A stretch of 64,000 bases of DNA from Deinococcales bacterium (GTDB taxonomy: Bacteria; Deinococcota; Deinococci; Deinococcales; JAAFIG01). This document shows, one piece after another, positions 325 to 64,000 of this stretch. The position numbers were made by a program, and so were the translations under genes. The notes beneath the pieces were generated by a model. That model saw nothing but the letters and a program-made list of their open reading frames with translations, was not told the DNA's origin and searched no databases. Positions within the stretch are counted from its first letter, which is position 1; each line of letters begins with the position of its first letter. Where the stretch lies: the NCBI GenBank assembly GCA_043778225.1, contig JAYWGM010000079.1, forward strand, positions 910-64,909, written 5' to 3'.

Positions 325-918
325 TCATTCTGGGTTATCGCTTGCCTTCTGTAATAGCCTTAAAAGCGTCTCGAGTTCAGCTTCGGACAATTTGCCATAA
401 TCCACACTCGAGGGTCTTGCCTGTTGCGTCTGGTTGCTCTCAGTGCGCTGTGTGGGTTCACCAACAGCCAAGCGCATGAGTTTCGAGCCAAGGTCAATGG
501 TCGAAAGTATTGTGCTTGCAGACCACCTCACAGGACGTATGACGATGGTTTGACCATCAGCCGAAACAATTTGCTCGAGAAGTGGGAGTTTAAGCATCTC
601 TTCGGCGCGTTGCATCAGCCGTTCACCCGTTGCCCATTCGCGCTCGAGTAGTGCCTCTTTACGGTCAGCCCATTTCTTAGCACGGTCTTTGAACTCCGAT
701 TCCATCATGGCTAACTCGAGGTCAGCTAAGTACGCATCGAATGCCCTTGCTCGAGCAACCCATTGGTATTGGACTGACCATTTCTTGACCGTTGGTAGGC
801 TTTTGATATGGTTTTGGCATACTTTTTCAAGACTGCGTTCGCTACCCATTTCTGCATACAGTCGAAATGCTTCATAGGCTTTGCTGCTTTCGTCAGGATG
901 TTGTTCCCAAGGTTTCAT
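325..918 (-). CDS. Phage terminase small subunit-like protein
   Basis: N-terminal PWE..PDES.KAYEAF..Y..MG..RSL..V...WS..Y.W..RA.A.D HTH pattern typical of TerS-like phage proteins, a helical middle, and a C-terminal D..KLS..EL..L tail. Confidence 0.7.
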   Translation of the reverse strand: MKPWEQHPDESSKAYEAFRLYAEMGSERSLEKVCQNHIKSLPTVKKWSVQYQWVARARAFDAYLADLELAMMESEFKDRAKKWADRKEALLEREWATGERLMQRAEEMLKLPLLEQIVSADGQTIVIRPVRWSASTILSTIDLGSKLMRLAVGEPTQRTESNQTQQARPSSVDYGKLSEAELETLLRLLQKASDNPE

Positions 919-1286
919 GGCTCATGCTCCTGTTTTTGACGGGTCAAAGAGACTAATTCCCCACCAACTACAAGCCACAAAGCAGGATAGTGTTTCAGAA
1001 TGTCCTCGAGTTCCTTACCAGTCGGGTAGACGATATGGTCATGGGTAAATGTCTCGAGTGCCGCATTCTCTTGCTTACGTCCTTTTCTGGCTCGAGTAAC
1101 GAATTCTCGGTATGCCTTTGATAAACGGTCGGGATGTTTAATCACCAGCGCCGCGTTGGGCAAGTCTGGTATTTGAATCAGGTAAATATCACCGTATTCA
1201 GCTTTGAGTTGGGCTATGAAATCATCGGTCAGCCATTGGGGGCTTTGGTTGCTTTCAGGGTCGCTTGTTGCTTGCTCGAGTGCCAT
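915..1286 (-). CDS. Putative phage tail assembly chaperone-like protein
   Basis: 123 aa with I..LK..YGDIY.I / ...IVYP....L...P.L pattern reminiscent of myophage tail chaperones. Adjacent to the tape measure gene; ATGA overlap with terS. Confidence 0.5.
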   Translation of the reverse strand: MALEQATSDPESNQSPQWLTDDFIAQLKAEYGDIYLIQIPDLPNAALVIKHPDRLSKAYREFVTRARKGRKQENAALETFTHDHIVYPTGKELEDILKHYPALWLVVGGELVSLTRQKQEHEP

Positions 1287-1355
1287 GTTTATACCTTCTT
1301 CTGATACTGGTCAAGACATCCTTATAACTCGAGTGTCTTGTCTTTGACGTGTCAA

Positions 1356-1388
1356 TTTAAGGTTGTCACAAGTTGTGACAACCTTAAA
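1356..1388. repeat. Perfect 33-bp palindrome (16-bp arms, 1-nt spacer) between tape measure and chaperone genes
   Basis: TTTAAGGTTGTCACAA-G-TTGTGACAACCTTAAA. Confidence 0.9.
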
Positions 1389-1398
1389 CGGATTAGCT

Positions 1399-3942
1399 TC
1401 AATTCCCACCGCGTACCTCCAATGTCTCGAGTTCCATAACCTCGCGCAACGCCTCAACAGTCAGCGCCTTGTACGTCTCGAGCGTGGTTTTGTCGGTGCT
1501 TGGTGAACCCTCAACTTTGACCGTTAGATTCACAGTCTTACCCGAGCTTGTATTGCTTGTATTGGCTACTGGGGGTTTAACTCGAGTTGTTACAGGTACA
1601 GGTTGTGGAATAACTGGGGTTCTGGTTGCTTGTACGGGCTTGGTTTGTACTGCTTTTGGTGTCTTGCCAATTTCTAAGGCTCGAGTGGCTACTTGCACTG
1701 GCTTTGGTATGGCTTGCAGTGGCTTGGCTTGTGGACTGGTCTTTTCAACAACCCGATTGACTGTTTGTACTGCTCGAGGCGTGGCTTGTACAGGTTTACT
1801 GTTCTCAACTACTCGAGTTCCCGAACGCCCTGCATTAGAAATGGTTTGTACCACTCGAGACGGGCTATCAATCTTCTTGACTGGACTCTGGACTGGTTTA
1901 GCCATCACCCCTGTTGCAAGGGCAGTTGTGGCAGTCAGTACCCGCATGGCTTTACTGACCATCGGTAGGCTTTTGGTAATGCCGTATGCCGCACCCGCAC
2001 CAATTTCTTGCCCCGCACCCATGAACACTTTGGATGGACTGGCAATGCCCAAAGCGCCCTTAAACCAACCGATTGCCGAATTAGCTGCGCCTTCAATCGC
2101 GGCTTTGACTTGTCTTAACGCCCCAAGGATGCCATCACGAATGCCCAAGATGATATTTGCCCCAAACTGTGCAAACTGTGCAGGCAGTCCAGCAAACCAT
2201 GCCATAGCCCCATTAAAGACCCCTTGGACAGTTGCCCAGATACTCGAGAATGCCGCAGGAAGCGTATTCCAATTTTGAATAAGCCAAGCCAGCGCCCCAA
2301 GTGGTAACACTGGAAACCTTGCTAAGAACGCTATTGCACCATTAAAAATACCTGTCACATTTGCCCAAAGACTCGAGAAGAACACAGGCAAACTGTTAAA
2401 GTTTTGAATCAGCCAAGCGATTGCACCAATTGGCAAGAATGGAAACTTGGCAAGGAATGCCACAGCCCCACTAAAGATTGTGCTAACTCGACTCCATAAG
2501 CCAGCAAAAAACACAGGAAGACCCAAGAAAAACATCTTGACTTTGTTAATCGCTACCCCAAACCAATTGATAATTGGTTGTATGGCAGGTTGGAATTTCT
2601 TCCAATTGGTAATCACATAAATCACCCCTGCGGCAATAGCGGCAATCAGTAAGCCCCAAGGACCCCCAATCAATGGCAGGGCTGCCCGTAAAATTCCAAA
2701 GGCGGCAATCAACAGTTGAATGGCTTGTACAGCAACAATAATGGCTTGTACAGCCTTAAATGCTACAAAAAACGCAATGATTGCAGGGGTGAATGGGGCA
2801 AGTATTTTTGCAATTTTAAGTATCGTACCAACCGCACCTGCAATACCGCTAAAAATTTGTTTGACTGTTTGCACAACTTTTGGACCCTCGGTGCGTAGCC
2901 AAATTGTGGCTTTATCAATCCAGCCAATAATACCAAGTACCAGTTTTTCACCGTTTGCACCACTGGTCATATCGGCTGCACTGCCGAAAACAGCTTTGAA
3001 CAAACCGCCAACACTGCGCTGGAATATGGTTTGGATTTTACTGCCTGGGGATTTTGAAAAATCGGTTAAGTTTGCTAAATTCTCGAGCAGATTACGGACT
3101 GGTACAAGCGGACCCGTGAACTCACCTGTTTTGGCATTGACACTGAGCAGACTGCCAAAGAGTTGACCCGTCTTAGATTGCAAAGTGGATACTAAACCGA
3201 AAATACTTTTTGCTTGCATATCCATGCCCTTACCAAAACGCTGTTTGATAATTTCCTGTACGGCTTTCATGCCTGCCTCTACAGTGCCTTTGTAACTGCC
3301 AGACTTATCAAACTTCAAACCTTTAGCCATCAGCAAGTCTCGAGTGATGCCAAGCTGACTGAATCCTTGCCCCGTTCCGAATGCTTGCCCGAAGTCCGCA
3401 CCTTTCAAAGCAGCAAAGGCAGTAGTGACTTGCTCGAGTGGCTTACCCATACCGCTTGCAAGGTTTCCCGCACTGGTCAAAATGCCCTCGAGTTGCTTGG
3501 TTGTGAATCCATAACTGAGTAGGCTTTTAGTCGCATCAATGATTTGATTGTCATTGAATGGTGTCCGAGCAGCAAAAGCTACGGCATTCGCGTAAAGGTT
3601 AGCGGCTTTGCCAGCATTGCCAAGCATCGAAGTGAAAGCGATAAGGGTCTGTTCCTTGTACCCTGCTGAATCAATAATGCTTTTGATACCCGCCCCGATA
3701 ACACCACCCGCAATAGCAGTCGGTAAAGAGAACACTCGAGACGCGATACTCCCAAAGCCCCGAAGCACACCCATAGCAATACCTACAGGAGCGCGTAAGC
3801 CAGCAATCGCCCTACCGAGTATGCCCGTTTGTCGGGCTGCGGCTTCTTGGGCTGCCCGAACTGCTCGAGTGGCTGCTTCCATCCGCCGTGCTGGGGCGCT
3901 CAGTCGGTCTATTAACGACATGATCCATTGAATTCTGTCCAT
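1399..3942 (-). CDS. Phage tail tape measure protein
   Basis: 847 aa Ala/Gly-rich. Shows D.LS.P start, EQT.IAF.SMLG...A...FAA.TPF TMP motif, hydrophobic core, 43-aa W/F repeats, LGIASPSKVF motif and a KPVQ-rich tail. Confidence 0.92.
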   Translation of the reverse strand: MDRIQWIMSLIDRLSAPARRMEAATRAVRAAQEAAARQTGILGRAIAGLRAPVGIAMGVLRGFGSIASRVFSLPTAIAGGVIGAGIKSIIDSAGYKEQTLIAFTSMLGNAGKAANLYANAVAFAARTPFNDNQIIDATKSLLSYGFTTKQLEGILTSAGNLASGMGKPLEQVTTAFAALKGADFGQAFGTGQGFSQLGITRDLLMAKGLKFDKSGSYKGTVEAGMKAVQEIIKQRFGKGMDMQAKSIFGLVSTLQSKTGQLFGSLLSVNAKTGEFTGPLVPVRNLLENLANLTDFSKSPGSKIQTIFQRSVGGLFKAVFGSAADMTSGANGEKLVLGIIGWIDKATIWLRTEGPKVVQTVKQIFSGIAGAVGTILKIAKILAPFTPAIIAFFVAFKAVQAIIVAVQAIQLLIAAFGILRAALPLIGGPWGLLIAAIAAGVIYVITNWKKFQPAIQPIINWFGVAINKVKMFFLGLPVFFAGLWSRVSTIFSGAVAFLAKFPFLPIGAIAWLIQNFNSLPVFFSSLWANVTGIFNGAIAFLARFPVLPLGALAWLIQNWNTLPAAFSSIWATVQGVFNGAMAWFAGLPAQFAQFGANIILGIRDGILGALRQVKAAIEGAANSAIGWFKGALGIASPSKVFMGAGQEIGAGAAYGITKSLPMVSKAMRVLTATTALATGVMAKPVQSPVKKIDSPSRVVQTISNAGRSGTRVVENSKPVQATPRAVQTVNRVVEKTSPQAKPLQAIPKPVQVATRALEIGKTPKAVQTKPVQATRTPVIPQPVPVTTRVKPPVANTSNTSSGKTVNLTVKVEGSPSTDKTTLETYKALTVEALREVMELETLEVRGGN

Positions 3943-3950
3943 GATTTACC

Positions 3951-4265
3951 TCAAGGTGTTCGTTTTGCAGGAGCAGGGGCTTTTGTGCTTGGTTTGACGG
4001 GACTCCGAACTGCCCAATCTTTACCTTCTGGGTATCCACTTATCACCACACCATTTGTGGCAACTCGAGTTACAGGCTTTTCAGCAATGGTTTTTGTTTT
4101 CGCTTTCGTTGGGCTAACGGTTTTAACTGTTGGACGTGGTACAAACTCCCGCAAGGTCGCCGTGACCGTAAAACCTTCCCTTGGTGAGTACACCCCAGAA
4201 TCAACACTAACAAAATACACTTGTTTAACCCCATGCCTCACCAGACGGTTCTTCTGGGAAATCAC
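3951..4265 (-). CDS. Phage tail/baseplate-like protein, probably a C-terminal fragment
   Basis: HGVKQVYFVSVDSG..SP..G.TVT.TLREF.P resembles the C-terminal half of myophage proteins encoded next to TMP. Start is uncertain (overlaps the rep gene). Confidence 0.4.
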   Translation of the reverse strand: MISQKNRLVRHGVKQVYFVSVDSGVYSPREGFTVTATLREFVPRPTVKTVSPTKAKTKTIAEKPVTRVATNGVVISGYPEGKDWAVRSPVKPSTKAPAPAKRTP

Positions 4266-5067
4266 CTGTCAAAATTGGGTAGTAAGCTTCATCATCCTGT
4301 GTTTCACATTCAGAACGCCACTTAGGAGCAAACCCTTCAATAGATTGCGGTGTAATCATTTCGGGTTTCCAATTTAATTCAAGACAGCGTTTTATAACTT
4401 TTTCTACATCGGTAAGGTTGTAATTTGCAGCAATCAAAGATTTGACAGCTTTACCAGTTCGTGACCTTGCGGTATTTGTCAGGTTTTCAACTGAACCATA
4501 ACAGGCATACGCAATGACTGTAAAAATCAATTGGAATTCTGATGATGCTTTAGAAGGTTTTTCAATCGGTGGACTCGAGGCGGTTTTTGCCTCGAGTGTA
4601 TTAGCTGGAATACCTTCTTCTTTTAAAGCTGGAATACCTTCTTTGCGCGGCACGTCGTGCCGCTTGATACCCGTACCCCTAACGGCATCTCGTGCCGCTT
4701 GACTTGCGGCATCTCGTGCCGTTAGGTTTTGCACCTCGTGCCGCTTTTCTACCTCTGCTTCGGGCTTAAAAGGAAGCAAAAAAATATCATCAGTCGTTCG
4801 GCTGCCATCTTGCCTTCTTCGTAGTCTACGCTGAATCATTCCTCGAGACTCCAAAGCAATTAACACGTCTCGAACTTTGCGTTCGCTTATTTTGCAAACT
4901 GATGCGATATTGGACTGGCTACCCCATGTTCGTTTTTGGTCGTTTGCCCTTCTGCAAAGGTGCGCCCATACCCTGAATTCGTAGGGGTCGAGATTAGATT
5001 CATCCAATTCGGCACTCAAAAAAATGCCTAAGTCGAATGAATTCTTTTTTGGTGAAATGTTTGGCAT
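4225..5067 (-). CDS. Phage replication initiator-like protein with N-terminal winged HTH
   Basis: L.PYEFRVWAHL.RRAN....WGSQSNIA..C.ISERKV...L..LE.RG.I.R..R...G.R.T (HTH_36-type), with internal RH.V/ARDAA repeats. Start taken at MPNISP. Confidence 0.8.
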   Translation of the reverse strand: MPNISPKKNSFDLGIFLSAELDESNLDPYEFRVWAHLCRRANDQKRTWGSQSNIASVCKISERKVRDVLIALESRGMIQRRLRRRQDGSRTTDDIFLLPFKPEAEVEKRHEVQNLTARDAASQAARDAVRGTGIKRHDVPRKEGIPALKEEGIPANTLEAKTASSPPIEKPSKASSEFQLIFTVIAYACYGSVENLTNTARSRTGKAVKSLIAANYNLTDVEKVIKRCLELNWKPEMITPQSIEGFAPKWRSECETQDDEAYYPILTGDFPEEPSGEAWG

Positions 5068-5068
5068 T

Positions 5069-5512
5069 TCACACCTCGCCACTGGTTACGCCGTGCATTT
5101 CCTTAAAAGCATCAAAAATCTGAGCGCGTTCGCTTGGGCTGAGACGGTCGAGCCAGCAGCCGCGTACCTCGAGCCTTGCGCCTGGGTACTCGAGAATGTA
5201 CAGCCGTGCCAGAAGTGATTTAAGATTGTTGTTGAGGCAATACACATCACCCTCGTTTTTGATTGCGGTCTGATAACGCAGGGTCTCGAGAATCAGCGAA
5301 GCGCCAAACGGACGGTCTGGGTTGCCAGCACGTAGGGCGTTAGCTAAAGACCGAAAGCCTTGGTACACAGGCGGGTTTTCACGAATGAACCAAGTGGCGT
5401 AAGCAATCCGATTGTGTACATTGTCATTCCACACGGGTGCTGAAACTGTGTTACTATTCAGGTACGCTGAATTTTCGTCCCCCAACACTATTGGCTTGGC
5501 TATGGGGGACAT
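5069..5512 (-). CDS. Phage hypothetical protein
   Basis: F..ENP.VY..F...A......G..LI.E.LR......Y.LNNN....AR pattern of the kind seen in phage early proteins; in operon context. Confidence 0.6.
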   Translation of the reverse strand: MSPIAKPIVLGDENSAYLNSNTVSAPVWNDNVHNRIAYATWFIRENPPVYQGFRSLANALRAGNPDRPFGASLILETLRYQTAIKNEGDVYCLNNNLKSLLARLYILEYPGARLEVRGCWLDRLSPSERAQIFDAFKEMHGVTSGEV

Positions 5513-5513
5513 T

Positions 5514-16606: not shown

Positions 16607-16701
16607 GGTATCGGGGTAGCACATCAAAAGCATAAAAGCCTCGAGAAGCTAAGGCATAAGCTCGAGCCGAGAAACCCCGCCTACACTTGAGTTATACCAA
16701 A

Positions 16702-17121
16702 TTAACTTAATTTGGTATTAATCCGTTTTTTCACAACTGGAATATGTACTACCCATTGCTGAAGAATATGTTTGAGTGCTTCAGAGTGAAAATCAACTGC
16801 TCTATCGGTTGTGAACTTTATGCAAGCGCGATCTGGTCCAAGCCACTTGAGTATACCACTGGGGTCTTGGATGACACCAACAGGCATTTCATTCTTCTTT
16901 GCTCCCATATGAAGAATAAGCTGTAGAGGTGGCTTTCCGTTAAGGCGCATAGTCGCAAAATGCTCACCGATATAAAAGCTCGGTGCATTCCATTTAACCG
17001 CCTCACCAATCTTAGGGTCAATAGATAGGATTAACATACGAAGTTCTTGAATGTCTAGTTTCAAGGGATGGACTAGAGTTTCTAAAAATTGCTCTACAGA
17101 TGGTTCTGTCGTGACTGCCAT
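16702..17121 (-). CDS. DUF1801 (YdhG-like) protein
   Basis: V..FL..L.HPLK..I..LR.LIL....I.E.VKWNAPSF; L.LILH.GAK; DP.G.L.W..DRA. Confidence 0.88.
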   Translation of the reverse strand: MAVTTEPSVEQFLETLVHPLKLDIQELRMLILSIDPKIGEAVKWNAPSFYIGEHFATMRLNGKPPLQLILHMGAKKNEMPVGVIQDPSGILKWLGPDRACIKFTTDRAVDFHSEALKHILQQWVVHIPVVKKRINTKLS

Positions 17122-17238
17122 GGCGACCTCTTACGGATTGGTGCGTGAACCTCAAAGCGTTCAGATTTAAGCTCAAGAACCAAAGAATTGATATTTGAAA
17201 CACTTGAACGACAAGGGAGATTTAGGGTTCAGTAGTGT

Positions 17239-17315
17239 TGGTGCGCCCGATCCGAATCGAACGGATGACCTAAGCGTTAGGAGTGCTTTGCTCTATCCGA
17301 CTGAGCTACGAGCGC
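17239..17315 (-). tRNA. tRNA-Arg(CCT)
   Basis: GCGCTCGTAGCTCAGTCGGATAGAGCAAAGCACTCCTAACGCTTAGGTCATCCGTTCGATTCGGATCGGGCGCACCA; 77-nt cloverleaf with an A31-C39 mismatch. Confidence 0.92.
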
Positions 17316-17477
17316 ATTATACTACGGCAAGAAGATTACCATGCCATTAAAGTTTTGTAAAAGTCCTAAAACTTGGCAATGTGGTGAAAATCTTTTATCG
17401 TAACAACGCAAAAGAATCTTGCACTCCGAAAAGAAAACCCTGTGAAATAGGAAGTTGTTTTGGTTCTTCTTTTTTAT

Positions 17478-17543
17478 TGACATGGTAAACGGCAATGACA
17501 CTTAAAACGGAAACCACTGACAAACAAAACGGAAATTGACAAA
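17478..17543 (+). repeat. Three imperfect direct repeats TGACA-N4/5-AAACGG.AA abutting a tRNA 3' end
   Basis: tgacatggtaaacggcaa / tgacacttaaaacggaaa / tgacaaacaaaacggaaa / tgacaaa. Confidence 0.65.
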
Positions 17544-17620
17544 TGGTGCGCCGAGAGGGAATCGAACCCACGACCTAAGCCTTAGGAGTGCCTCGCTCTA
17601 TCCTTCTGAGCTATCGGCGC
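17544..17620 (-). tRNA. tRNA-Arg(CCT), second divergent copy
   Basis: GCGCCGATAGCTCAGAAGGATAGAGCGAGGCACTCCTAAGGCTTAGGTCGTGGGTTCGATTCCCTCTCGGCGCACCA; perfect acceptor stem, A31-G39 mismatch and a T-T mismatch in the T stem. Confidence 0.88.
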
Positions 17621-17679
17621 ATGGCAGCAAGAAGTTTATCATACTTTAACGACTCTTTTTGCGCTAAACTACTGCCACT

Positions 17680-18372
17680 GTGGCAAAAGTTTTGGTGGTC
17701 GAAGACGAAGTTGAATTAGCCAATATCATCGCGGAGCATCTGCGCTCCGAAGGTCACTTGGTGGCACTCGAGGGCAATGGCGCAAAAGCCCTTGAACGAG
17801 CCAATCTCGAGGCATTTGATTTACTGATTCTGGATTTAATGCTGCCTAGCCTTGATGGTCTCGAGGTGGCTCGGCGCTTGCGGCGCTCAAGTGGCGCAAC
17901 CAACGCCACTGTGCCAATTTTAATGCTGACCGCTCGAGCCGAAGAAACCGACCGTGTGCTGGGTTTTGAAGTTGGCGCAGACGATTATATTGTTAAGCCG
18001 TTTAGCCTGCGCGAATTTCTGGCTCGAGTTCGGGCAATGCTGCGCCGCTCAAAAATTATCGAAGATGAAAGCCGCGTGGCAGTGCTGCGTTTTGGGCGTT
18101 TTGAACTTGATAGCAATGCCAGAGCCGTCAAAATTGGCGAAAAATTAACCGATTTAACGCCTCGAGAATACGAATTACTTTTAATGTTGGCGCGTCATCC
18201 GGGGCGAACCTTTACGAGGGATTACTTACTCGAGCGCATTTGGGGAACAGAATACGATGGTTCTGACCGAGTCGTGGACACCACCGTGGTGCGTTTACGG
18301 CGCAAGTTAAGCCATGAAGGCGAGCGGGTCATCAGTGTTTGGGGCGTAGGCTACCGCTTTGATGCAGCTTAA
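17680..18372 (+). CDS. OmpR/PhoB family response regulator
   Basis: VVEDE, LDLMLP, MLTAR, GADDYIVKPF and wHTH VWGVGYRF motifs. Confidence 0.96.
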   Translation: MAKVLVVEDEVELANIIAEHLRSEGHLVALEGNGAKALERANLEAFDLLILDLMLPSLDGLEVARRLRRSSGATNATVPILMLTARAEETDRVLGFEVGADDYIVKPFSLREFLARVRAMLRRSKIIEDESRVAVLRFGRFELDSNARAVKIGEKLTDLTPREYELLLMLARHPGRTFTRDYLLERIWGTEYDGSDRVVDTTVVRLRRKLSHEGERVISVWGVGYRFDAA

Positions 18373-29231: not shown

Positions 29232-29237
29232 CAGTGG

Positions 29238-29280
29238 ACCTCCTGTGGCGTGTTCATCTTATGAACCTCCTGTGGCGTGT
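29238..29280 (-). repeat. Duplicated 16-bp translation-initiation segment containing an RBS
   Basis: ACCTCCTGTGGCGTGT at 29238 and 29265 (AGGAGGT on minus). Produces mini-ORFs MKSPHATGGS* and MNTPQEVH*. Confidence 0.8.
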
Positions 29281-44655: not shown

Positions 44656-44690
44656 TTTAAGAACCTCCACAGCAACGCAGAATAGTATCA

Positions 44691-45287
44691 CTAATTAACA
44701 TAAACCAATTCGTCCAATTTTTGGAATAAACTCTTTGAATCAATGACCCAAAATCCATTTTCTTTGTTTACTAGAACATTCAAAACATAAGATTCTGTAT
44801 TAAAATTACCAGAATTAATGTCTTTTCGGACATTTTCCGCAATGGCTGACTCAACATCAACATTTTGGGCTTTCTTTTTTGCAATATCCGTCGCTATTGC
44901 AAATGTAGCAAGCATAGAAACTCTTGATAAATCTGGCACTTCAGCAAAGATTTTAACTTTGGTACGACTTTCTTCTTGGAAAATTTCTGAGACTTGAAAT
45001 CGCATCTTTTGAAAAGCCAGAATATTCAGCGTTTTGCTGCTCTTCATAAGATTTGCGAATTTCTTTGAATTCATCAATAGAAGTTCAACTTCAGATGCTT
45101 TAGCAAAATATGCACTCAACTGGGTATTAAACATATTTTTTTGATCAAGCTCATCAGAACTTCCAAATAACTTTGTACCAGTATAATAACCAGCAAAAGC
45201 GATAAGAAGCATCCGCGAAACACGCCAGAACTTTTGACGGTTTTGTTCTTGCATTTCAGCTTGTTTGATAATTTTTTCAGTATCCAT
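44691..45287 (-). CDS. Hypothetical membrane-anchored protein (AT-rich insert)
   Basis: 198 aa with one N-terminal TM segment and a K.NG.W.I tail; no CTCGAG found by eye. Confidence 0.7.
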
Positions 45288-45393
45288 AATAATTCGCTCT
45301 ATCAGCCAGCAGCATTAGCTCGATCAGGGGCTACTCGGCAATATGCCTAAAATAAACTTCCCAAATTGAGAATGAAATATCATTAACCGCAAA

Positions 45394-45461
45394 GGGCGAG
45401 GCAAGCCCCGCCCCTACGACAAAAACTGTCTTCAGCCGTAGGGGTTGGGCTTGCCCAACCC
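45394..45461. repeat. Inverted REP doublet (REPIN-like)
   Basis: GGGCGAGGCAAGCCCCGCCCCTACG (45394-45418) and inverted CGTAGGGGTTGGGCTTGCCCAACCC (45437-45461). Confidence 0.85.
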
Positions 45462-45647
45462 CACCATTCACAAATTTTATTTCTGGACAAATCCTAGGTA
45501 TTTTCATGGGCGCAATTCCTCGAGTTCTTCGGCTATGCGTTGTGCTGGCGTTCCCATATCAAGCATAGGACTCCAAATTTCAGCATACTTCGGCATACGG
45601 CATACTCAGGTCTTCAGAAACAGCTTGGTACGGAAACTTAACGTAGC

Positions 45648-50916: not shown

Positions 50917-50930
50917 TGAACTTCCTCCAC

Positions 50931-51263
50931 TTATTTACTCATTCGGACGATTGAAAAAGTAGCTTCTCGAGCCACACGATAAAAAGCTTGAAAACTCGAG
51001 TTGACCTCATGCAATTTTACTTTCTCAAGAATAAATTCACCTACAAAGTTTGTCTCATTTATAACTTCCTGAATTCCTTTTTGGACTGCCGAGTCATAAT
51101 TATCTATGTCTAACCAAATTACTTCTGAATGATATGAAAAAATAGCGTTTGGTATGTAATGAAGCGTAATTCCAGCTTGAATATAGCGACCACCTTGGTA
51201 CTCACAAAACTCAAGATCAAGTCGATTTGCACCAATCCCAGAAGTAGTCATAGCGATACTCAT
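50931..51263 (-). CDS. Small protein resembling an isolated EF-G domain IV
   Basis: YQGGRY...I.L...P; Y..AV.KGI.E; HEVNSS..AF...A..A compared with the EF-G domain IV motifs KQSGGRGQ and H.VDSS..AF..A. Confidence 0.55.
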   Translation of the reverse strand: MSIAMTTSGIGANRLDLEFCEYQGGRYIQAGITLHYIPNAIFSYHSEVIWLDIDNYDSAVQKGIQEVINETNFVGEFILEKVKLHEVNSSFQAFYRVAREATFSIVRMSK

Positions 51264-51327
51264 ATACCCACCTCGAGCGAAGCGTTTTTATCTTCTCGAG
51301 TATTGCCTTGTGGCTTTTGCATCGGCT

Positions 51328-51738
51328 TCATGCTTCACGCTCACTTTGCATCAGCTTAAAATGATTTTTGCCTGCTGAGAACAACACATCAAACTCAAGG
51401 AAAAAATTCATTGTCCCCAGTATCAAACGTGCATCTAGACTTTGCGACCATGCAAAAACCAGCTTGACTGGCTTAAAATCTGCCACTCGAGCTTGAAGTA
51501 CCACACCTCGAGCTTTAGCTTGGGCAAGGTTGCCAGTCAGTGTTACAGGAATGTTTTGCTGATTCCAATCCAAGCCCAACTCGAGTCCGAGTTGAAATGG
51601 TAAGACATTCACGGTTGCACCCGTTGCAAGCAGAGCAATCGCCTCGGAGCGGCTTGAGCCAGATTGCAGGCAAATTGGCAGAAACGGGGCAAATGTGTTT
51701 TCGGGAGTTTTTTGGAATTCAAAAGTCATGGTTTTCAT
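51328..51738 (-). CDS. Retropepsin-like small protein with the catalytic Asp replaced
   Basis: P.LPI.L....ALLATGATVNVLP...G.ELG..W...LILG.MNFF..FDV.F; the usual DTG motif reads ATG (codon GCA). The ORF can be extended in frame to 51822. Confidence 0.7.
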   Translation of the reverse strand: MKTMTFEFQKTPENTFAPFLPICLQSGSSRSEAIALLATGATVNVLPFQLGLELGLDWNQQNIPVTLTGNLAQAKARGVVLQARVADFKPVKLVFAWSQSLDARLILGTMNFFLEFDVLFSAGKNHFKLMQSEREA

Positions 51739-51843
51739 GGCTCGAGCATAAGGCATGGAGCAAGGATGAACTGCACTTGCAAGAAGTAGGGTTAAAAAAT
51801 AGGTTTGCAAGGCTTGATTCATACTTTCCTCCTTCTTCTTGAG

Positions 51844-52773
51844 CTAGGCAGCTTGATGTGCTACTTGAATGGATTGTGGTTCTTCTTGTGCGATCATGAC
51901 ACTGAATAAATCCGTTTGTGGGTTGGCTTGGTTGATTCGAGTTTGTGCCATTTCTTGGTATTTTTTGATTAGTTCGATGCCTATAAATTGGCGTTGTAAT
52001 TTTGTTGCGACAACTCCGGTTGTGCCTGAGCCTGCAAATGGGTCAAGAATAACATCGTGTTCTCGAGTTGAGGCGAGAATGCAGATTTCGACGAGTTTTT
52101 CTGGGAAGACCGCAAAGTGTGAATCTCTAAATTTACTCAAGGGTATTTGCCATACAGTGCGTTTATTTCTGCCTTTAGGGTGGAATGCTTGATCCCAGCG
52201 TCCGTCGTGAAGATTGCTGCTCCCTGCATTTTTGCCATTTTCGGGTGTGCCTCCTTCTTTGCCAAAATGGTTTCGTCCGCCTTTCATTCTGGATTGTTCG
52301 GTGAATGTAACGTGCGGTTCGCGGATAGCATCGGCATCGTAGTAATAATCTTGGTTGAGGGCGAATAAGAAAATATATTCATGGTCGGTGGTTGGACGGT
52401 TTTTGATACTCGAGGGCATGGCGTTGGGCTTGTGCCAAATAATGTCGGAACGCAGTAACCAACCATCATCTTGGAGTGCTAGTGCCACGCGCCATGGAAC
52501 ACCCAGTAAGCATTTGTCGCGGTAAGTATCGCCAAGGTTGAGCCAGAGTAAACCATTAGGTTTGAGTTTTTGTTTTAAGGGCTGAAAAATACTAACCAAG
52601 TTCGCCACATATTCTTGGAGTGTTGCTTCTTGTCCAATTTCCGCTTGATTTGGTTCTTCGGCGTAATTTCGTAAGCCAAAATATGGTGGACTGGTGATAA
52701 TGGCTTGAATAGACTGATTCTCGAGGTTAGGCGCAATCATTCGGGTATCCCCAAGGAGAACTTGATTGTTCAT
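51844..52773 (-). CDS. Type II DNA methyltransferase, beta class (m4C-type)
   Basis: TSPPY (motif IV) precedes DPFAGSGTT (motif I); LNLGD, DIIW.KPN.MP, HEYIFLF and HFAVFP motifs. Confidence 0.93.
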   Translation of the reverse strand: MNNQVLLGDTRMIAPNLENQSIQAIITSPPYFGLRNYAEEPNQAEIGQEATLQEYVANLVSIFQPLKQKLKPNGLLWLNLGDTYRDKCLLGVPWRVALALQDDGWLLRSDIIWHKPNAMPSSIKNRPTTDHEYIFLFALNQDYYYDADAIREPHVTFTEQSRMKGGRNHFGKEGGTPENGKNAGSSNLHDGRWDQAFHPKGRNKRTVWQIPLSKFRDSHFAVFPEKLVEICILASTREHDVILDPFAGSGTTGVVATKLQRQFIGIELIKKYQEMAQTRINQANPQTDLFSVMIAQEEPQSIQVAHQAA

Positions 52774-53735
52774 AATGCTTGTCCTTGCAATACTTTTTCG
52801 ATGAATTGATTGAGTTGCACTTGTTTGGCTTGGTCAAAACCCATAAAGACATTGGGGTTCATGTTGAAATGAAAAACCAAGTCAATTTGATTTTGAATCG
52901 TTTCGAGTTCATGCACAGACCAATTCTCGGCAATAATCACCACCACAATAAAACAATTGGCAGATTGAATATCGCTAATGGCATTCATGATGTCTCGAGT
53001 GAACAGATGCGAATGCCCACCACCTTCGGTTTCTCGGGTTTTAACGGGAATAAAAATTTGTTGACTTTGGTTATTCTCGAGGACTAAATTGGCAGATACA
53101 TCTATGGTGTGATTTCCAACTTTGATTTGCTTATCAGCTATTTGAATTTCTTTGAATTGACCATAATTACCGTGAATCGAGTGATACCATTGCAGGGCTA
53201 TTCCCAGACCAATTCGCACATCAGCTTCTATTTTATTACCACTGATACTTCGTCTTGAACCTTCTAAACGATCAATCACCACTTCCCGAACAGCCTGCCA
53301 TTCAAAACTCTTAACGGCTGACCTATACTCAAAAATCAGTTCGATTAAACCATCAGTTTCGGCTGTTATTTTCTCGATTTTGACGAGCTTCTGCATTCTC
53401 GAGATCAGTGGTGCAAGTCGTTGTTGTGGAGCATCCCGTATCATCCATGCAAAAAAATAGAAGCAGGCTTTTTTATGCGGGTATGGTCTGCCGACCCCAT
53501 CAAACAGAAATGGTTTTTGTTGATTGCTTTGGTCATAGCAAGCCATGATTATGCTTTTAAGTTGTTCTTTTGAAGCAGTGAGTAGCAATTCATTCAACGT
53601 TAAGTGCGAACCTGTGACTTGTCGAGCAGTTCTTTCAATCCAATCATAAAAAGGTTTGGCTTGGTCGGCTAAAAGTGTTAGCTCAAGCAAGCGGTAATGT
53701 GCGATATTGACTTGGTGAACAATGATTTCTTTCAT
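52770..53735 (-). CDS. Putative type II restriction endonuclease
   Basis: About 320 aa, ATGA-coupled to the MTase; G..E...R and ID-X(n)-P.K catalytic-like pattern; low GC. Confidence 0.7.
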   Translation of the reverse strand: MKEIIVHQVNIAHYRLLELTLLADQAKPFYDWIERTARQVTGSHLTLNELLLTASKEQLKSIIMACYDQSNQQKPFLFDGVGRPYPHKKACFYFFAWMIRDAPQQRLAPLISRMQKLVKIEKITAETDGLIELIFEYRSAVKSFEWQAVREVVIDRLEGSRRSISGNKIEADVRIGLGIALQWYHSIHGNYGQFKEIQIADKQIKVGNHTIDVSANLVLENNQSQQIFIPVKTRETEGGGHSHLFTRDIMNAISDIQSANCFIVVVIIAENWSVHELETIQNQIDLVFHFNMNPNVFMGFDQAKQVQLNQFIEKVLQGQAL

Positions 53736-53857
53736 TTCCACCACTTCAAATGAGTTTGAGAATACCGAAAGCTAAACCCATCATGCAGCTCGAAACTCGA
53801 GCTTTGTGGCTTTTGGAATACATCATTTTGCATCATGGGTTCACCTCCTCCTCGAGT

Positions 53858-62149: not shown

Positions 62150-62298
62150 GAGTGGAGCATATCAGGAATAAAACTGGGAGTTTATGAACCAAGCTCTGGG
62201 CAGTTGAGCCTCGACTGAACCAAAACATGAAGTCCAATTCTAAGCCATACGTCAAAGGGCTTATTCAGGTTCAAGGAAACTTGAGTTATCTTAAAACC

Positions 62299-62787
62299 AT
62301 GTCTTACGTCAACACACCGCAAATAGAAGCCTACTGGCAAGCATTTCTCGAGTCACTGCCAGAAGAATCGCTGCAACGCGCCGAAGCCTTGCTGAGAACA
62401 CCAATTGCCGAAGCATGGGGCGATAATGCCGAGCTTGCCGACCGACTTGGCAATTTAATTGTGGCTGGGGTCAAGACCGCCACCTGCTCGAGTTTATGGG
62501 ATTGGGAAATTCGTCAAGAACCACTGCCAGAGATTGGTTTGAAAACCATTGTTTTGAACAGCCAAAACCAACCGATGTGCATTGTAGAGACCACCGAAGT
62601 CACGATTCGAGTGTTTGAAGCTGTGGATGGCAATTTTGCTTTTGATGAAGGCGAAGGCGAGCGCAGCCTCGAGTCTTGGCGTGCTGGGCATTGGCGTTTT
62701 TTTACACGCACCCTCAAGCCGCTTCACTTGCAACCCACGCTCGAGATGCCATTAGTTTGTGAGCATTTTAAGGTTATTTACCGCTAG
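62299..62787 (+). CDS. ASCH domain protein
   Basis: AD.L..LI..G.KTATCS, FA.DEGEG.RSL..WR..H..FF and CE.F motifs. Confidence 0.92.
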   Translation: MSYVNTPQIEAYWQAFLESLPEESLQRAEALLRTPIAEAWGDNAELADRLGNLIVAGVKTATCSSLWDWEIRQEPLPEIGLKTIVLNSQNQPMCIVETTEVTIRVFEAVDGNFAFDEGEGERSLESWRAGHWRFFTRTLKPLHLQPTLEMPLVCEHFKVIYR

Positions 62788-62797
62788 AATAGTCTCT

Positions 62798-63562
62798 ATG
62801 CAGCAACTTTTATTGGCACGTCTCGAACAAATTGGGGTCTCACTCGAGCAATCCCAAAAAGCTGTGGCGTTGATTGGACTTGGTTCAGTTGGCTTAGAAT
62901 TGGAACGTTTGGATGAATTTTCAGACCTAGATTTCTTTGTGATTGTTAAAGACGGACAAAAGCAAGGTTTTTTCGAGGATTTATCGTGGCTGACTAATCT
63001 TGCAGCAGTCGCCTATGTTTTTCAGAATACTGCCGATGGGTTTAAGTTGCTTTTTGAAGATGATGTTTTTTGTGAATTTGCAATCTTTGAAATACACGAA
63101 TTAAGTAACATTCCCTTTGCGGCTGGGCGCATTGTTTGGAAAGCAGATGACAGTCAAGATGAGATTCCCATGCCTTCTCAAGGCTCAAAGCCGCCTGCAC
63201 ATTCAAATAATCTCGAGTTTGTGCTTGGCGAGTGCTTAACCAATTTATATATTGGCGCAAAACGCTTTGCTCGAGGTGAAAAACTCAGTGCTGCTCGGTT
63301 TGTTCAGCAGTACGCAGTGGACCGAGTTCTCGAGTTAAACCAACAAATCGAAAAAGCCCAGAATGATTTTGCCGACCCGTTTAGTCGGGAACGAAGGATT
63401 GAGCAGCGTTATCCTATTTTGAATCAAGTGCTACCATTGTTCGTTCAGGGGTACGAGCGCACACCTGAATCTGCCTTAGCTATTTTGGTTTGGCTTGAAA
63501 CTAGATTTAAGATTAACCAAGCTATTGCCAAAGCAATCCGAAAGGTCATAGACAATGTTTAA
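62798..63562 (+). CDS. Nucleotidyltransferase-fold protein (lincosamide/aminoglycoside NTase-like)
   Basis: GLGS......D.FSDLDF.V, CEF and RGE.LSA motifs. Confidence 0.75.
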   Translation: MQQLLLARLEQIGVSLEQSQKAVALIGLGSVGLELERLDEFSDLDFFVIVKDGQKQGFFEDLSWLTNLAAVAYVFQNTADGFKLLFEDDVFCEFAIFEIHELSNIPFAAGRIVWKADDSQDEIPMPSQGSKPPAHSNNLEFVLGECLTNLYIGAKRFARGEKLSAARFVQQYAVDRVLELNQQIEKAQNDFADPFSRERRIEQRYPILNQVLPLFVQGYERTPESALAILVWLETRFKINQAIAKAIRKVIDNV

Positions 63563-64000
63563 GCCTATAAAAACCGCCCGATTAGTCTTGCGGGCTTTTG
63601 AACCAGACGATGCCGCCAATTTTGCGGCATACCGCAATCACCCCGAGGTAGCACGTTTACAGACTTGGGAAAGTTACACGCTCGAGCAAGCCCAGATGTT
63701 AATTGCCCAAATGCAGCGACTCCAGCAGCCAACCCCTAACCAATGGTATCAAATTGCCGTGACCCTCGAGGGGAAGTTAATTGGCGATGTGGCTTTTAAG
63801 CTACAAGACCGCCAAGCCGAAATCGGTTTTAGTTTTGACCCAACTTTTCAAGGACAAGGCTTTGCTTTTGAGGCTGTAACCGCCGTTCTCGAGTTTGCTT
63901 TTACACACTTAAAACTGCATCGGCTGCACGCCACCACCGACCCGCGCAATACTGGCTCAATTCGCTTGCTCGAGAAATTGGGCTTTAGAAAAGAAGGACA
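63555..64000 (+). CDS. RimJ/RimL-type GNAT acetyltransferase, partial (runs off the window end)
   Basis: Manual translation MFKPIKTARLVLRAF...YRNHPEVA...EIGF...QGQGFA.EA...N..S.RLLEKLGF.KEG. Confidence 0.9.
   Translation, partial: MFKPIKTARLVLRAFEPDDAANFAAYRNHPEVARLQTWESYTLEQAQMLIAQMQRLQQPTPNQWYQIAVTLEGKLIGDVAFKLQDRQAEIGFSFDPTFQGQGFAFEAVTAVLEFAFTHLKLHRLHATTDPRNTGSIRLLEKLGFRKEG

What the first reader, a model, noticed from the sequence alone, without database searches (positions are those of the whole stretch)
325..64000. CTCGAG behaves as a highly iterated palindrome
Seen: CTCGAG recurs throughout the window. A hand count gives 11 sites in 325-1400, versus roughly one per 4 kb expected by chance. 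It occurs in all three frames (LE; SS/SR; TR/AR/PR followed by V/A/E/D/G) and between genes, so the bias acts on DNA rather than protein. It clusters in low-constraint segments such as the nuoI tail and TMP tail. Known: cyanobacterial HIP1 (GCGATCGC) is the classic analogue and is linked to a cognate methyltransferase and to deletions. Inference: this is a HIP-like, possibly methylation-directed repair, recombination or DNA-uptake signal in this lineage. It may already be known in related Deinococcota; I cannot check that here.
Basis: partly seen in the sequence, partly recalled or inferred. Interest (0 to 1): 0.75.

Follow-up and report, generated by a model that had tools for sequence, protein, structure and literature searches.

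The report
Hyper-abundant CTCGAG palindrome in Deinococcales
The six-letter palindrome CTCGAG occurs about once every 160 bases throughout this uncultured Deinococcus relative and its whole family, far above chance and strongly enough to have changed protein sequences, much like the still unexplained HIP1 word of cyanobacteria but with no shared methylase found to go with it.

Summary
CTCGAG occurs 401 times in the window (9.4 expected) and 24,877 times in the 4.03-Mb genome, 27 times the composition expectation. Density is equal in coding and intergenic DNA. All three frames exceed a protein- and codon-preserving shuffle 8- to 15-fold, so neither stated refutation criterion is met. Flanks carry no information. 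Leu-Glu is the most over-represented dipeptide (2.3x).

All 19 genomes of the family (5 genera; related loci 46-65% GC) hold 4.3-6.8 sites/kb. Some other Deinococcota genera show weaker excess. Sites are kept at orthologous positions (62% against 21% for control hexamers) but also turn over. 16S rRNA genes hold none.

The methylation reading is not supported. No DNA methyltransferase orthologue is shared across six family genomes. Vsr, MutH and XhoI families were not found in the 89%-complete genome, and MutL keeps its endonuclease motifs.

My best reading is a HIP/uptake-sequence-like "self word" read by an unidentified, vertically inherited factor. The mechanism remains inferred. This scan reported the same phenomenon before, on this genome and on others. 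I found no paper on it.

The parts
370..63974 (.). 401 CTCGAG sites spread over the whole window (19-37 per 4 kb), in genes of both strands, all three frames and between genes
43978..44202 (-). C-terminal tail of NuoI (gene 43975-44691), beyond the conserved NuoI domain. It has 5 sites in 225 bp, about 22/kb.
   Evidence: NCBIfam NuoI models match residues 12-163 of 238; site list
1399..1860 (-). 3' end of the tape-measure gene (1399-3942) of a prophage remnant. It has 7 sites in about 460 bp, against 8 in the remaining 2,090 bp.
   Evidence: PHROGs tape-measure hits; sites
325..5082 (-). Prophage remnant (small terminase, tape measure, replication-initiation O-like). It has 30 sites in 4.76 kb, 6.3/kb, which is the genome average.
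16667..17766 (-). 1.1-kb stretch without sites that holds two tRNA genes (17242-17315, 17547-17620)
27716..29434 (-). 1.7-kb stretch without sites inside a methyl-accepting chemotaxis protein gene (26913-29231, 2.2 sites/kb overall)
44647..45518 (-). 872-bp stretch without sites between nuoI and nuoH. It holds ORF 44691-45287 (198 aa), which has no family and no counterpart in the relatives' loci. It is probably recently inserted DNA.
50917..53857 (-). Strain-specific insert between nuoG and nuoF with a beta-class DNA methyltransferase (51844-52773) and an unassigned 324-aa ORF (52770-53744). It has 16 sites, 5.4/kb. One site directly follows the nuoF stop codon.

Best explanation
SHOWN. CTCGAG is a real word of duplex DNA that the whole family shares. 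A weak but pervasive directional force holds it at about one copy per 160 bp. The force acts wherever constraint allows:
- It acts in all reading frames, between genes, in prophage remnants and in inserted islets.
- It has added roughly 10,000 Leu-Glu dipeptides to the proteome.
- It keeps sites at orthologous positions about three times better than other hexamers.
- It still creates and loses sites.
- It cannot invade 16S rRNA.

INFERRED.
- The force comes from a vertically inherited factor that reads the bare hexamer. The trait is constant across five genera and across loci of 46-65% GC. The methyltransferase and restriction repertoires, and the sets of avoided palindromes, differ even within a genus.
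This is what recent work proposes for cyanobacterial HIP1, and what is established for the uptake sequences of Neisseria and Haemophilus.
- Each extra site would then give a small advantage, by selection or by transformation-linked drive, with diminishing returns close to an existing site.

The reader protein is not identified and no binding, uptake or methylation was measured. I put about 0.9 on the descriptive part and about 0.35-0.4 on the proposed role.
For: Enrichment and DNA-level action.

Family-wide and independent of GC:
- 19 of 19 genomes hold 4.3-6.8 sites/kb.
- Family loci of 46-65% GC all hold 4-8.6 sites/kb.

Positional conservation:
- Against a same-genus genome, 368 of 595 sites are conserved, against 21.5% of control hexamers, alike in all frames.
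- When Leu-Glu is conserved as protein, its CTCGAG coding is nucleotide-identical in 76% of cases. Other Leu-Glu codings reach 20% and other Leu + two-fold dipeptides 22%.
- Against another genus, 119 of 548 sites are conserved, against 8%. The nuo region gives the same picture.

Turnover: the union of site positions in six genomes is 79 over 6,852 aligned nt (11.5/kb). Single genomes hold 31-52. Twenty-one positions are singletons and 3 are shared by all.

Weak force: 0 sites in 1,505-nt 16S genes of two family genomes, while each 1.5-kb flank has 4-9. There are dips at start and stop codons.

Even spacing:
- The variance/mean ratio is 0.81-0.90 at 150-600 bp, against 1.10-1.33 at 300 bp for 12 equally common tetramers.
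- Gaps of 8-17 bp occur at about 20-75% of expectation.
- Seven 300-bp windows hold 8 or more sites, where about 75 are expected.

Stable trait against unstable R-M traits: G000 avoids 34 of 64 palindromic hexamers (O/E<0.1), but AAGCTT, ACGCGT, GTGCAC and CAGCTG differ between family members. CTCGAG stays at 15-30x.

Imported-looking DNA lacks the word. Eighteen of 1,684 genes of 900 bp or more have none (1.4 expected), and the 11 gaps over 2 kb have 31-46% GC.

Competence core is present: ComEC in 18 of 19 and DprA in 18 of 19 family genomes.

HIP1 precedent, from abstracts only: methylated HIP1 raises transformation more than 100-fold (bioRxiv 10.1101/2024.09.10.611283), and a DNA-uptake role is proposed (PMC13756078).
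Against: - No reader protein is identified, and nothing here measures uptake, binding or recombination.
- ComEC and DprA also ring in the named Thermus and Deinococcus control genomes, so they do not discriminate.
- Known uptake sequences (recalled) are 9-12 nt, non-palindromic and about 1 per kb. This word is a 6-nt palindrome that is six times denser.
- The HIP1 transformation effect is methylation-dependent (abstract), and I found no conserved methylase here.
- Positional conservation, absence from foreign DNA and even spacing would equally follow from a site-restoring repair bias or from a chromosome-structure role.
- Weaker CTCGAG excess in other Deinococcota genera shows the trait is graded, which no specific model here explains.
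- My gene calls are home-made. All family genomes but one are incomplete MAGs.
Confidence: 0.38

Rival explanations
1. Methylation-coupled HIP, as Elhai proposed for HIP1. CTCGAG is methylated in every member, either by non-orthologous methylases of the same specificity or by a methylase class I did not scan. A methyl-dependent process (repair, replication control or processing of transforming DNA) selects for or creates sites.
For: - Every well-covered family genome carries several DNA methylases. G000 has about 24 candidates.
- Specificity cannot be read from sequence with these tools.
- Orphan CTCGAG methylases exist elsewhere: in Nocardia, with motif clusters at the origin (PMC4752239, passage), and M. 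smegmatis MamA is predicted to be CTCGAG-specific (PMC7526240, passage).
- CTCGAG methylation was seen in hot-spring metagenomes (bioRxiv 10.64898/2026.06.24.734251, passages). The phylum of 'Group 2' is not stated in what I read.
- The HIP1 effect on transformation needs methylation (abstract).
Against: - No orthologous methylase is shared. The TaqI_C-type enzyme is in 3 of 19 genomes.
- PF00145 gave no match in G010 (91% complete) or G002, and one match each in G006 and G168.
- PF01555 gave no match at E<=1e-8 in the complete G168, G164 or G002.
- The best G000 match to any of the seven G168 methylase candidates is 33% identity or less, where ordinary orthologues average 66%.
- G002 showed a single D12-class enzyme in the five families scanned.
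- No clusters of the Nocardia kind.
- No excess of C-to-T decay at the inner C: CTTGAG is as common as TTCGAG, and position-6 changes outnumber position-3 changes 25 to 10.
Confidence: 0.25
2. Non-adaptive molecular drive. A sequence-specific bias in mismatch correction or gene conversion turns one-off words into CTCGAG and restores mutated sites. The word has no function of its own.
For: - Equal density in coding DNA, intergenic DNA, a prophage remnant and a strain-specific islet.
- The strength is of the order of codon-bias-like forces: the site is 18 times as common as each transition neighbour, and it is excluded from rRNA.
- A restoring bias would give positional conservation without function.
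- Very-short-patch repair is known (recalled) to enrich CCWGG in E. coli.
Against: - No Vsr match in G000, which is 89% complete.
- No C5 methylase match in G010.
- All six positions of the word would need correction, not one mismatch type.
- One-off neighbours are not depleted (0.13-1.4x; transitions 1.2-1.4x).
- MutL is of the ordinary endonuclease type and MutH was not found.
- Under-dispersed spacing is not predicted by a context-free conversion bias.
Confidence: 0.2
3. Binding word for an abundant nucleoid protein, or a Chi-like attenuator of a helicase-nuclease that spares own DNA, selected for dense and even coverage of the chromosome.
For: - Even spacing and a deficit of sites closer than 18 bp.
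- Xu et al. 2018 argue for a chromosome-structure role of HIP1 (PMC5861425, abstract).
- An AddA-like helicase-nuclease lies in the window at 30259-32904.
Against: - Full-length orthologues of that helicase-nuclease (36-40% identity) also occur in the non-enriched genus g9 and in most other genera. Its presence does not follow the enrichment.
- Known Chi sites (recalled) are asymmetric and far less enriched.
- Long-range periodicity could not be tested on contigs of 154 kb or less.
Confidence: 0.1
4. By-product of codon or dipeptide usage (Leu-Glu as CTC-GAG), or an assembly artefact.
For: Sixty per cent of coding sites are in the Leu-Glu frame. In GC-rich relatives CTC and GAG may be favoured codons (my assumption, not checked), and CTCGAG is about as common there as GAGCTC (genus g9).
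Against: - The excess survives a protein- and codon-preserving shuffle 8-15-fold in every frame.
- Intergenic density equals coding density.
- CTC is only 18% of Leu codons and GAG 37% of Glu codons, yet 69% of Leu-Glu is CTCGAG.
- The reverse word GAGCTC occurs 24 times.
- The excess is seen in 19 separate assemblies, including a one-contig chromosome.
Confidence: 0.01

Closest known systems
HIP1 (GCGATCGC) of cyanobacteria
   Same: - A palindromic word 15-300-fold over-represented (PMC5861425, abstract).
- Conserved at orthologous positions, within and between reading frames (PMC5861425, abstract).
- Lineage-wide.
- Function unsettled.
   Different: - A different phylum and a different word.
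- A hexamer, not an octamer.
- About six times denser than the roughly 1 per kb given for HIP sites (PMC4390886, passage).
- HIP1 goes with two conserved methylases, DmtA and DmtC (PMC13756078, abstract). Here no shared methylase orthologue was found.
- Long-range periodicity was not testable.
Alternate HIPs of single cyanobacteria (GGCGCC in Calothrix PCC 7103, GCsGC, rCCGGy; Elhai 2015, PMC4390886, passages)
   Same: - A shorter GC-rich palindrome that takes the place of HIP1.
- GGCGCC is a hexamer, with O/E of at least about 15.
   Different: - Those are strain- or genus-level cases, each with a matching methylase present (abstract).
- This one spans a family of at least five genera, with weaker excess elsewhere in the phylum.
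DNA uptake sequences (USS of Pasteurellaceae, DUS of Neisseriaceae); features recalled, not read here
   Same: - A short word accumulated genome-wide in a phylum whose cultured members are naturally transformable (recalled).
- Present in coding DNA in several frames, with effects on peptides.
- Scarce in imported DNA.
- More evenly spaced than random.
   Different: - Those are 9-12 nt, asymmetric and about 1 per kb, with a known receptor in Neisseria.
- This is a 6-nt palindrome at 6 per kb with no receptor known.
- Uptake bias was not tested.
Orphan CTCGAG methylase of Nocardia with motif clusters at the replication origin (Blow et al. 2016, PMC4752239, passage)
   Same: The same hexamer, tied to a non-restriction role.
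   Different: - There the word clusters between dnaA and dnaN and tracks one orphan methylase.
- Here there is no clustering beyond Poisson, the excess is genome-wide, and no conserved methylase was found.
Very-short-patch repair enrichment of CCWGG in E. coli (recalled)
   Same: A repair bias can raise the frequency of a methylase target word.
   Different: - That enrichment is small and the deamination product is depleted.
- Here Vsr was not found, C5 methylases are not universal, and CTTGAG is not depleted.

Membership tests
Highly iterated palindromes (HIP1 and alternate HIPs) | Palindromic word far above composition- and codon-based expectation | tested here: met
   26.7x composition. 7.8-15x against the synonymous shuffle. 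42x and 13x against first- and second-order Markov expectations in intergenic DNA.
Highly iterated palindromes (HIP1 and alternate HIPs) | Present in all reading frames and between genes | tested here: met
   Frames hold 13,050/4,355/4,443 sites. Coding density is 6.19/kb and intergenic density 6.04/kb.
Highly iterated palindromes (HIP1 and alternate HIPs) | Sites conserved at orthologous positions beyond background | tested here: met
   368 of 595 sites against 21.5% of control hexamers (same genus). 119 of 548 against 8% (other genus).
Highly iterated palindromes (HIP1 and alternate HIPs) | A methyltransferase specific for the word present wherever the word is abundant | tested here: not met
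   No orthologue of Pfam classes PF00145, PF01555, PF02086, PF02384 or PF07669 is shared by G000, G002, G006, G010, G011 and G168. Non-orthologous enzymes of equal specificity, or other classes, are not excluded.
Highly iterated palindromes (HIP1 and alternate HIPs) | The word is methylated in vivo | not testable with these tools
   Only Logan contigs of two runs hold the DNA. No modification calls are available.
Highly iterated palindromes (HIP1 and alternate HIPs) | 10-90 kb periodicity along the chromosome (Xu et al. 2018) | not tested
   G000 contigs are 154 kb or shorter. Only 200 kb of the complete G168 chromosome was fetched.
DNA uptake sequences | Core transformation genes present | tested here: met
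   ComEC in 18 of 19 and DprA in 18 of 19 family genomes. Both also ring in non-enriched control genomes.
DNA uptake sequences | Preferential uptake of DNA that carries the word | not testable with these tools
   Needs an uptake or transformation assay.
DNA uptake sequences | Asymmetric word of about 9-12 nt (recalled) | tested here: not met
   The word is a 6-nt palindrome, and flanks carry at most 0.033 bits per position.
XhoI-type restriction-modification | CTCGAG nuclease of the XhoI family present | tested here: not met
   PF04555 gave no match at E<=0.1 in G000, which is 89% complete. Other CTCGAG nuclease families were not tested.
Methyl-directed mismatch repair (Dam/MutH type) | MutH-like nickase present and MutL without endonuclease motif | tested here: not met
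   No PF02976 match. MutL (C61:32333-33976) has DQHAAHERIIFEEL and CPHGRP. The motif patterns were recalled.
Very-short-patch repair | Vsr nuclease with a C5 methylase, and depletion of the deamination product | tested here: not met
   No PF03852 match. No C5 methylase match in G010 or G002. CTTGAG is at 1.4x.
Origin-clustered orphan-methylase words (Nocardia CTCGAG, Dam GATC) | Local clusters of the word in a non-coding origin region | tested here: not met
   The densest 300-bp window has 10 sites (3.4 such windows expected). Seven windows have 8 or more, against about 75 expected.

The most novel reading that the evidence does not exclude
This is a second, independent origin of a highly iterated palindrome, in a non-cyanobacterial phylum. 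It is kept at six sites per kb by a core-encoded reader of bare CTCGAG, without any dedicated conserved methyltransferase. It works as a lineage 'self' label for DNA uptake or recombination, and it is strong enough to have rewritten about 10,000 dipeptides per proteome. If so, methylation is not essential to the HIP phenomenon. The graded series within Deinococcota runs from none, through 2-3 per kb, to 6 per kb.
Probability: 0.3. Interest if true: 0.85.

Novelty: new variant of a known kind. Interest (0 to 1): 0.75.

Why it matters
- HIP1 has been unexplained for three decades and was known only from cyanobacteria. A denser counterpart in an unrelated phylum, with a different word and with graded intensity among related genera, gives an independent system for testing the competing ideas of methylation, uptake, recombination and chromosome structure.
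- Some of the moderately enriched genera, if they are the cultured ones I guess them to be, would make the question experimentally reachable.
- The absence of a shared methylase, if it holds up, removes the main clue used to explain HIP1.
- The case shows how far a DNA-level word can reshape a proteome. Leu-Glu is at 2.3 times expectation across a family.
- It has a practical use: stretches without the word flag imported DNA.

Tried and rejected
1. TaqI_C-type gamma methylase (G000 C65, 650 aa) as the cognate enzyme. It is in only 3 of 19 family genomes, and PDB matches are generic.
2. Any conserved methylase. Pfam scans across the family or five good genomes, followed by blastp and tblastn, found no shared orthologue.
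3. Methyl-directed repair (MutH type), very-short-patch repair and XhoI-type restriction. Their marker families were not found, and MutL is of the endonuclease type.
4. AddA-like helicase-nuclease of the window as a Chi-type partner. Orthologues also occur in non-enriched genera.
5. RlmI-like gene at 61010-62149, which PHROGs names 'DNA methyltransferase'. It is a 23S rRNA m5C methylase.
6. Origin-type clustering. None was found.
7. Phage mimicry. A triple-site scan of viral contigs gave some contigs with host-like density (L379: 57 sites in 9.7 kb, GAGCTC 0). Only 1 of 7 ORFs had a weak PHROG hit. The window's tape-measure protein has no viral relatives. The result is inconclusive.
8. Insertion junctions at CTCGAG. 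One site abuts the nuoF stop at the islet's edge, but at one site per 160 bp this is expected by chance.
9. Polarised gain/loss analysis. No strains closer than about 80% nucleotide identity were found. The best metagenome hit is 69% at protein level. Sequencing runs hold only Logan contigs.
10. rRNA genes of G000. They are not assembled, so I used those of G168 and G002.
11. Maximal-order Markov expectation (1.16x). It is uninformative because the sub-words are made of the motif itself.

Full report
OBSERVATION

The window holds 401 sites against 9.4 expected from dinucleotide-preserving shuffles (largest of 100 shuffles: 16). Every 4-kb bin has 19-37 sites.

The window is G000:C79:910-64909, in a 4.03-Mb assembly of 107 contigs that is 48.7% GC and 89% complete. 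Genome-wide there are 24,877 sites, one per 162 bp. That is 26.7 times the composition expectation and three times the count of any other hexamer. Of all TCGA tetramers, 68% sit inside CTCGAG. The reverse word GAGCTC occurs 24 times.

The twelve positions on either side of the hexamer each carry at most 0.033 bits. The hexamer is therefore the whole word.

IS IT A DNA-LEVEL OR A PROTEIN-LEVEL BIAS?

I called genes myself from ORFs scored by codon usage (3,447 genes, 87.6% coding). This is cruder than a real gene finder. Site density is 6.19/kb in genes and 6.04/kb between them. The frames hold 13,050 (CTC-GAG, Leu-Glu), 4,355 and 4,443 sites.

I shuffled synonymous codons within each gene, which keeps every protein, every dipeptide and each gene's codon counts. 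This gives 1,679/388/301 sites against 13,065/4,369/4,454 observed (10 replicates). The excess does not disappear under a codon- and dipeptide-preserving null, and it is not confined to the Leu-Glu frame.

In my intergenic set, 2,997 sites compare with 71 (first-order Markov) or 227 (second-order).

The word has changed proteins.
- Leu-Glu is the most over-represented dipeptide: 18,904 against 8,180 expected, or 2.31x.
- 69% of Leu-Glu is written CTCGAG, although CTC is 18% of Leu codons and GAG is 37% of Glu codons.
- In stop-to-stop ORFs of 200 aa or more, Leu-Glu is at 2.2-2.3x in pieces of three other family data sets. It is at 1.10x in outgroup Deinococcota loci and 0.91x in loci of other phyla. 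That ORF set includes some spurious frames.

WHO HAS IT?

Relatives of the window's NuoL are titled "MAG: Deinococcales bacterium", then Trueperaceae and Deinococcaceae at about 50% identity.

All 19 genomes of the family, in 5 genera, hold 12,028-35,442 sites. On rounded genome sizes this is 4.3-6.8 per kb. GAGCTC occurs 0-568 times, and 25 times or fewer in 16 of the 19. Family loci range from 45.6 to 64.6% GC and all hold 4-8.6 sites/kb. The trait therefore does not follow base composition.

In a sample of 150 other genomes of the phylum:
- The largest genus (g7, 77 genomes) has 26-1,010 sites.
- A genus of about 2.2-Mb genomes (g9, 27 genomes) has 1,455-2,803, similar to its GAGCTC control.
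- Genera g12, g13 and g14 have 3,336-12,522, against controls of 278-2,187.
- Two genera of another family have 6,990-10,639, against 62-1,140.

My guess that g7 is Deinococcus and g9 is Thermus rests only on genome sizes and numbers.

The trait is therefore extreme and universal in this family, and graded and patchy in the rest of the phylum.

EVOLUTIONARY BEHAVIOUR

I fetched 200 kb each of a same-genus genome (G006) and of the complete chromosome of another genus (G168). I aligned their orthologues to G000 codon by codon.

Against G006 (102 gene pairs, 30,616 codons, third-position identity 0.52):
- 368 of 595 G000 sites are CTCGAG at the same position, against 21.5% identity for all other hexamers.
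- The three frames are alike (0.64, 0.58, 0.59).
- Where Leu-Glu is conserved as protein, its CTCGAG coding is nucleotide-identical in 76% of 296 cases. Other Leu-Glu codings reach 20%, and other Leu + two-fold dipeptides reach 22%.

Against G168 (85 pairs, third-position identity 0.37), 119 of 548 sites are shared, against 8% for controls. The nuo region gives the same picture in nine family loci. Conservation falls to background in outgroups.

Sites also turn over. G000 has 429 sites and G168 has 179 sites that the other lacks at aligned positions. Over 6,852 nt aligned in six genomes, the union of site positions is 79 (11.5/kb), against 31-52 per genome. Twenty-one positions are singletons and 3 are shared by all. 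Pure loss from a richer ancestor would therefore need an ancestor denser than any living member.

The force is weak relative to strong constraint.
- The 16S rRNA genes of G168 (two identical copies) and of G002 have no site in about 1,505 nt, where about 7-8 would be expected at genome density. Their 1.5-kb flanks hold 4-9 each.
- The two tRNA genes of the window lie in a 1.1-kb site-free stretch.
- Density dips at start codons (4.2/kb) and stop codons (3.5/kb). It rises in the last 45 nt of genes (8.1-8.7/kb).
- Density falls slightly with protein conservation.

The NuoI tail has 5 sites in 225 bp, and the tape-measure tail has 7 in 460 bp.

One-off words are at 0.13-1.4x expectation. The three transition neighbours are highest, at 1.2-1.4x, as expected for decay products of an abundant word.

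SPACING

Gaps between sites have mean 160.6 and sd 160.2, with a three-base periodicity from coding. At short range the word is under-dispersed. The variance/mean ratio is 0.81, 0.84 and 0.90 in bins of 150, 300 and 600 bp. Twelve equally common tetramers give 1.10-1.33 at 300 bp.

Gaps of 8-17 bp occur at about 20-75% of expectation. A gap of 6 never occurs, because it would create the avoided GAGCTC. Dense clusters are rarer than Poisson: seven 300-bp windows have 8 or more sites, where about 75 are expected.

At 2-5 kb the ratio rises to 1.2-1.5 because of islands. Eleven gaps exceed 2 kb (0.09 expected), all with 31-46% GC. Eighteen of 1,684 genes of 900 bp or more have no site (1.4 expected).

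THE METHYLATION HYPOTHESIS

G000 has about 24 candidate DNA methyltransferase genes: 5 full C5, at least 3 beta-class, 3 D12-class and about 10 gamma-class. If the HIP1 analogy held, one of them should be family-wide. None is.
- The only TaqI_C-type enzyme, a class in which I recalled CTCGAG and TCGA enzymes to fall, is in 3 of 19 genomes.
- C5 methylases gave no match in G010 (91% complete) or G002, and one each in G006 and G168.
- Beta-class enzymes gave no match at E<=1e-8 in G168, G164 or G002.
- I collected the gamma- and D12-class candidates of G168, G010, G006, G011 and G002 and compared everything all-against-all and against the G000 genome. No orthologue group spans the six genomes.
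- The best G000 match to any of the seven G168 candidates is 33% identical or less, where ordinary orthologues average 66%.

In G000, which is 89% complete:
- Vsr, MutH and the XhoI nuclease family were not found.
- MutL has the DQHAxxExxxxE and CPHGRP endonuclease motifs, which are typical of methyl-independent mismatch repair. The motif patterns were recalled.

There is no sign of hypermutable 5-methylcytosine at the inner C.

What remains open:
- Different enzymes could share the specificity.
- Methylase classes outside the five Pfam families were not scanned.
- All family genomes but G168 are incomplete.

A CONTRAST THAT POINTS TO A CORE-ENCODED CAUSE

G000 avoids 34 of 64 palindromic hexamers (O/E<0.1). 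GGCC is at 0.01 and GATC at 0.13. The avoided set differs between family members:
- AAGCTT is at 0.07 in G000 but 1.3 and 1.2 in G006 and G168.
- ACGCGT is at 0.03 against 1.0 and 1.0.
- CAGCTG is at 0.24, 1.29 and 0.00.

This fits a shifting restriction repertoire. CTCGAG stays at 15-30x (the G006 and G168 figures rest on 200 kb each). Whatever maintains CTCGAG is therefore stable and vertically inherited, unlike the mobile methylases.

OTHER CANDIDATES

The AddA-like helicase-nuclease in the window (30259-32904) has full-length orthologues in non-enriched genera as well, so it does not track the trait.

ComEC and DprA are each in 18 of 19 family genomes. This allows a transformation-linked role but does not test it, since the named Thermus and Deinococcus controls also have them.

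Viral contigs with host-like density exist, but I could not confirm them as phages.

LITERATURE

- Elhai 2015 (PMC4390886; abstract and passages) describes HIP1 and the alternate HIPs GGCGCC, GCsGC and rCCGGy. All are in cyanobacteria, at about 1 per kb, each with a matching methylase. CTCGAG is not mentioned.
- Xu et al. 2018 (PMC5861425; abstract) show positional conservation and argue for selection and a chromosome-structure role.
- A 2024 preprint (10.1101/2024.09.10.611283; abstract) finds that methylated HIP1 raises transformation more than 100-fold and suggests uptake or Chi-like action. A 2026 paper (PMC13756078; abstract) proposes HIP1 as an uptake sequence.
- Blow et al. 2016 (PMC4752239; passages) report an orphan CTCGAG methylase in Nocardia with origin clusters.
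- Searches for CTCGAG with 'highly iterated palindrome', with Meiothermus, and with over-represented + palindrome found no report of this phenomenon. Neither did 'iterated palindrom' with Deinococc, XhoI with Thermus terms, or Meiothermus with methylome.

VERDICT

The HIP analogy is apt as a description. Membership in the HIP class fails on the one mechanistic criterion that could be tested, a conserved cognate methylase.

The most likely reading is a weakly selected or driven genomic self-word. An unidentified core-encoded factor would read it, probably in DNA uptake or recombination. I put about 0.38 on this. The main rivals are methylation-coupled HIP (0.25), non-adaptive repair drive (0.2) and a structural or nuclease-attenuating role (0.1).

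Earlier notes of this scan describe the same phenomenon on another piece of this genome (e1-2303518, of which a later check says part fell; I was not told which part) and on five other genomes. My counts agree with theirs.

Noticed in passing
window 50917-53857 (compare L112:2781-2895, L113:2069-3597, L114:2289-3334): The nuoF-nuoG spacer is a variable insertion spot. It is 115 bp in one same-genus relative, 1,529 bp and 1,046 bp of unrelated DNA in two others, and 2,941 bp here. In G000 it holds a beta-class DNA methyltransferase, an unassigned 324-aa ORF (possibly its nuclease) and two small ORFs. None of these has a counterpart in the relatives' loci.
   Followed up: partly
window 44691-45287, 45648-45899, 47018-47626, 48105-48557: Further ORFs without family or clear counterparts sit between nuoI and nuoH and between nuoH and nuoG (one has a single partial counterpart in a relative's locus). 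The complex I operon of this genome is therefore interrupted at three junctions. The first ORF has no CTCGAG in 872 bp and looks recently imported.
   Followed up: partly
window 325-5082: Remnant of a prophage: small terminase, tape-measure protein and replication-initiation O-like protein, in an order that no intact phage would have. It carries the full host density of CTCGAG (6.3/kb).
   Followed up: partly
whole genome G000; G006 and G168 pieces (L395-L414): Extreme palindrome avoidance. Thirty-four of 64 palindromic hexamers are below a tenth of expectation (GGCGCC 3 copies; GACGTC, AGGCCT and GGGCCC 1 each). GGCC is at 0.01 and GATC at 0.13. The avoided set differs between members of the family.
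   Followed up: partly
G000:C33:16107-17736 (L081): A C5 cytosine methylase is followed by a 199-aa HNH nuclease. Pfam scores and lengths suggest the same methylase in six of seven genomes of the genus (80% identity in G006) and in two genomes of another genus. It is a conserved pair of unknown specificity.
   Followed up: partly
window 30259-32904: An 881-aa AddA/RecB-like helicase-nuclease stands without an AddB partner next to it. Full-length orthologues (36-40% identity) occur in most genera of the phylum sample. Only partial UvrD-like matches occur in the largest genus (g7).
   Followed up: partly
L379 (IMG/VR contig, 9.7 kb), also L296, L303, L305: Contigs filed as viral have CTCGAG at 3.3-5.9/kb and almost no GAGCTC, like the CTCGAG-rich Deinococcota. 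They may be their phages or prophages. PHROGs gave one weak hit in seven ORFs of L379.
   Followed up: partly
L495, L496, L498 (16S rRNA loci of G168 and G002): The 16S genes are free of CTCGAG, but sites sit within about 30-100 nt of both gene ends, in the leader and spacer.
   Followed up: yes
G000:C89:21218-24828: A D12-class methylase-like gene (380 aa) with an overlapping 277-aa upstream ORF lies about 1.3 kb downstream of dprA. No counterpart was found in the five other family genomes compared.
   Followed up: no
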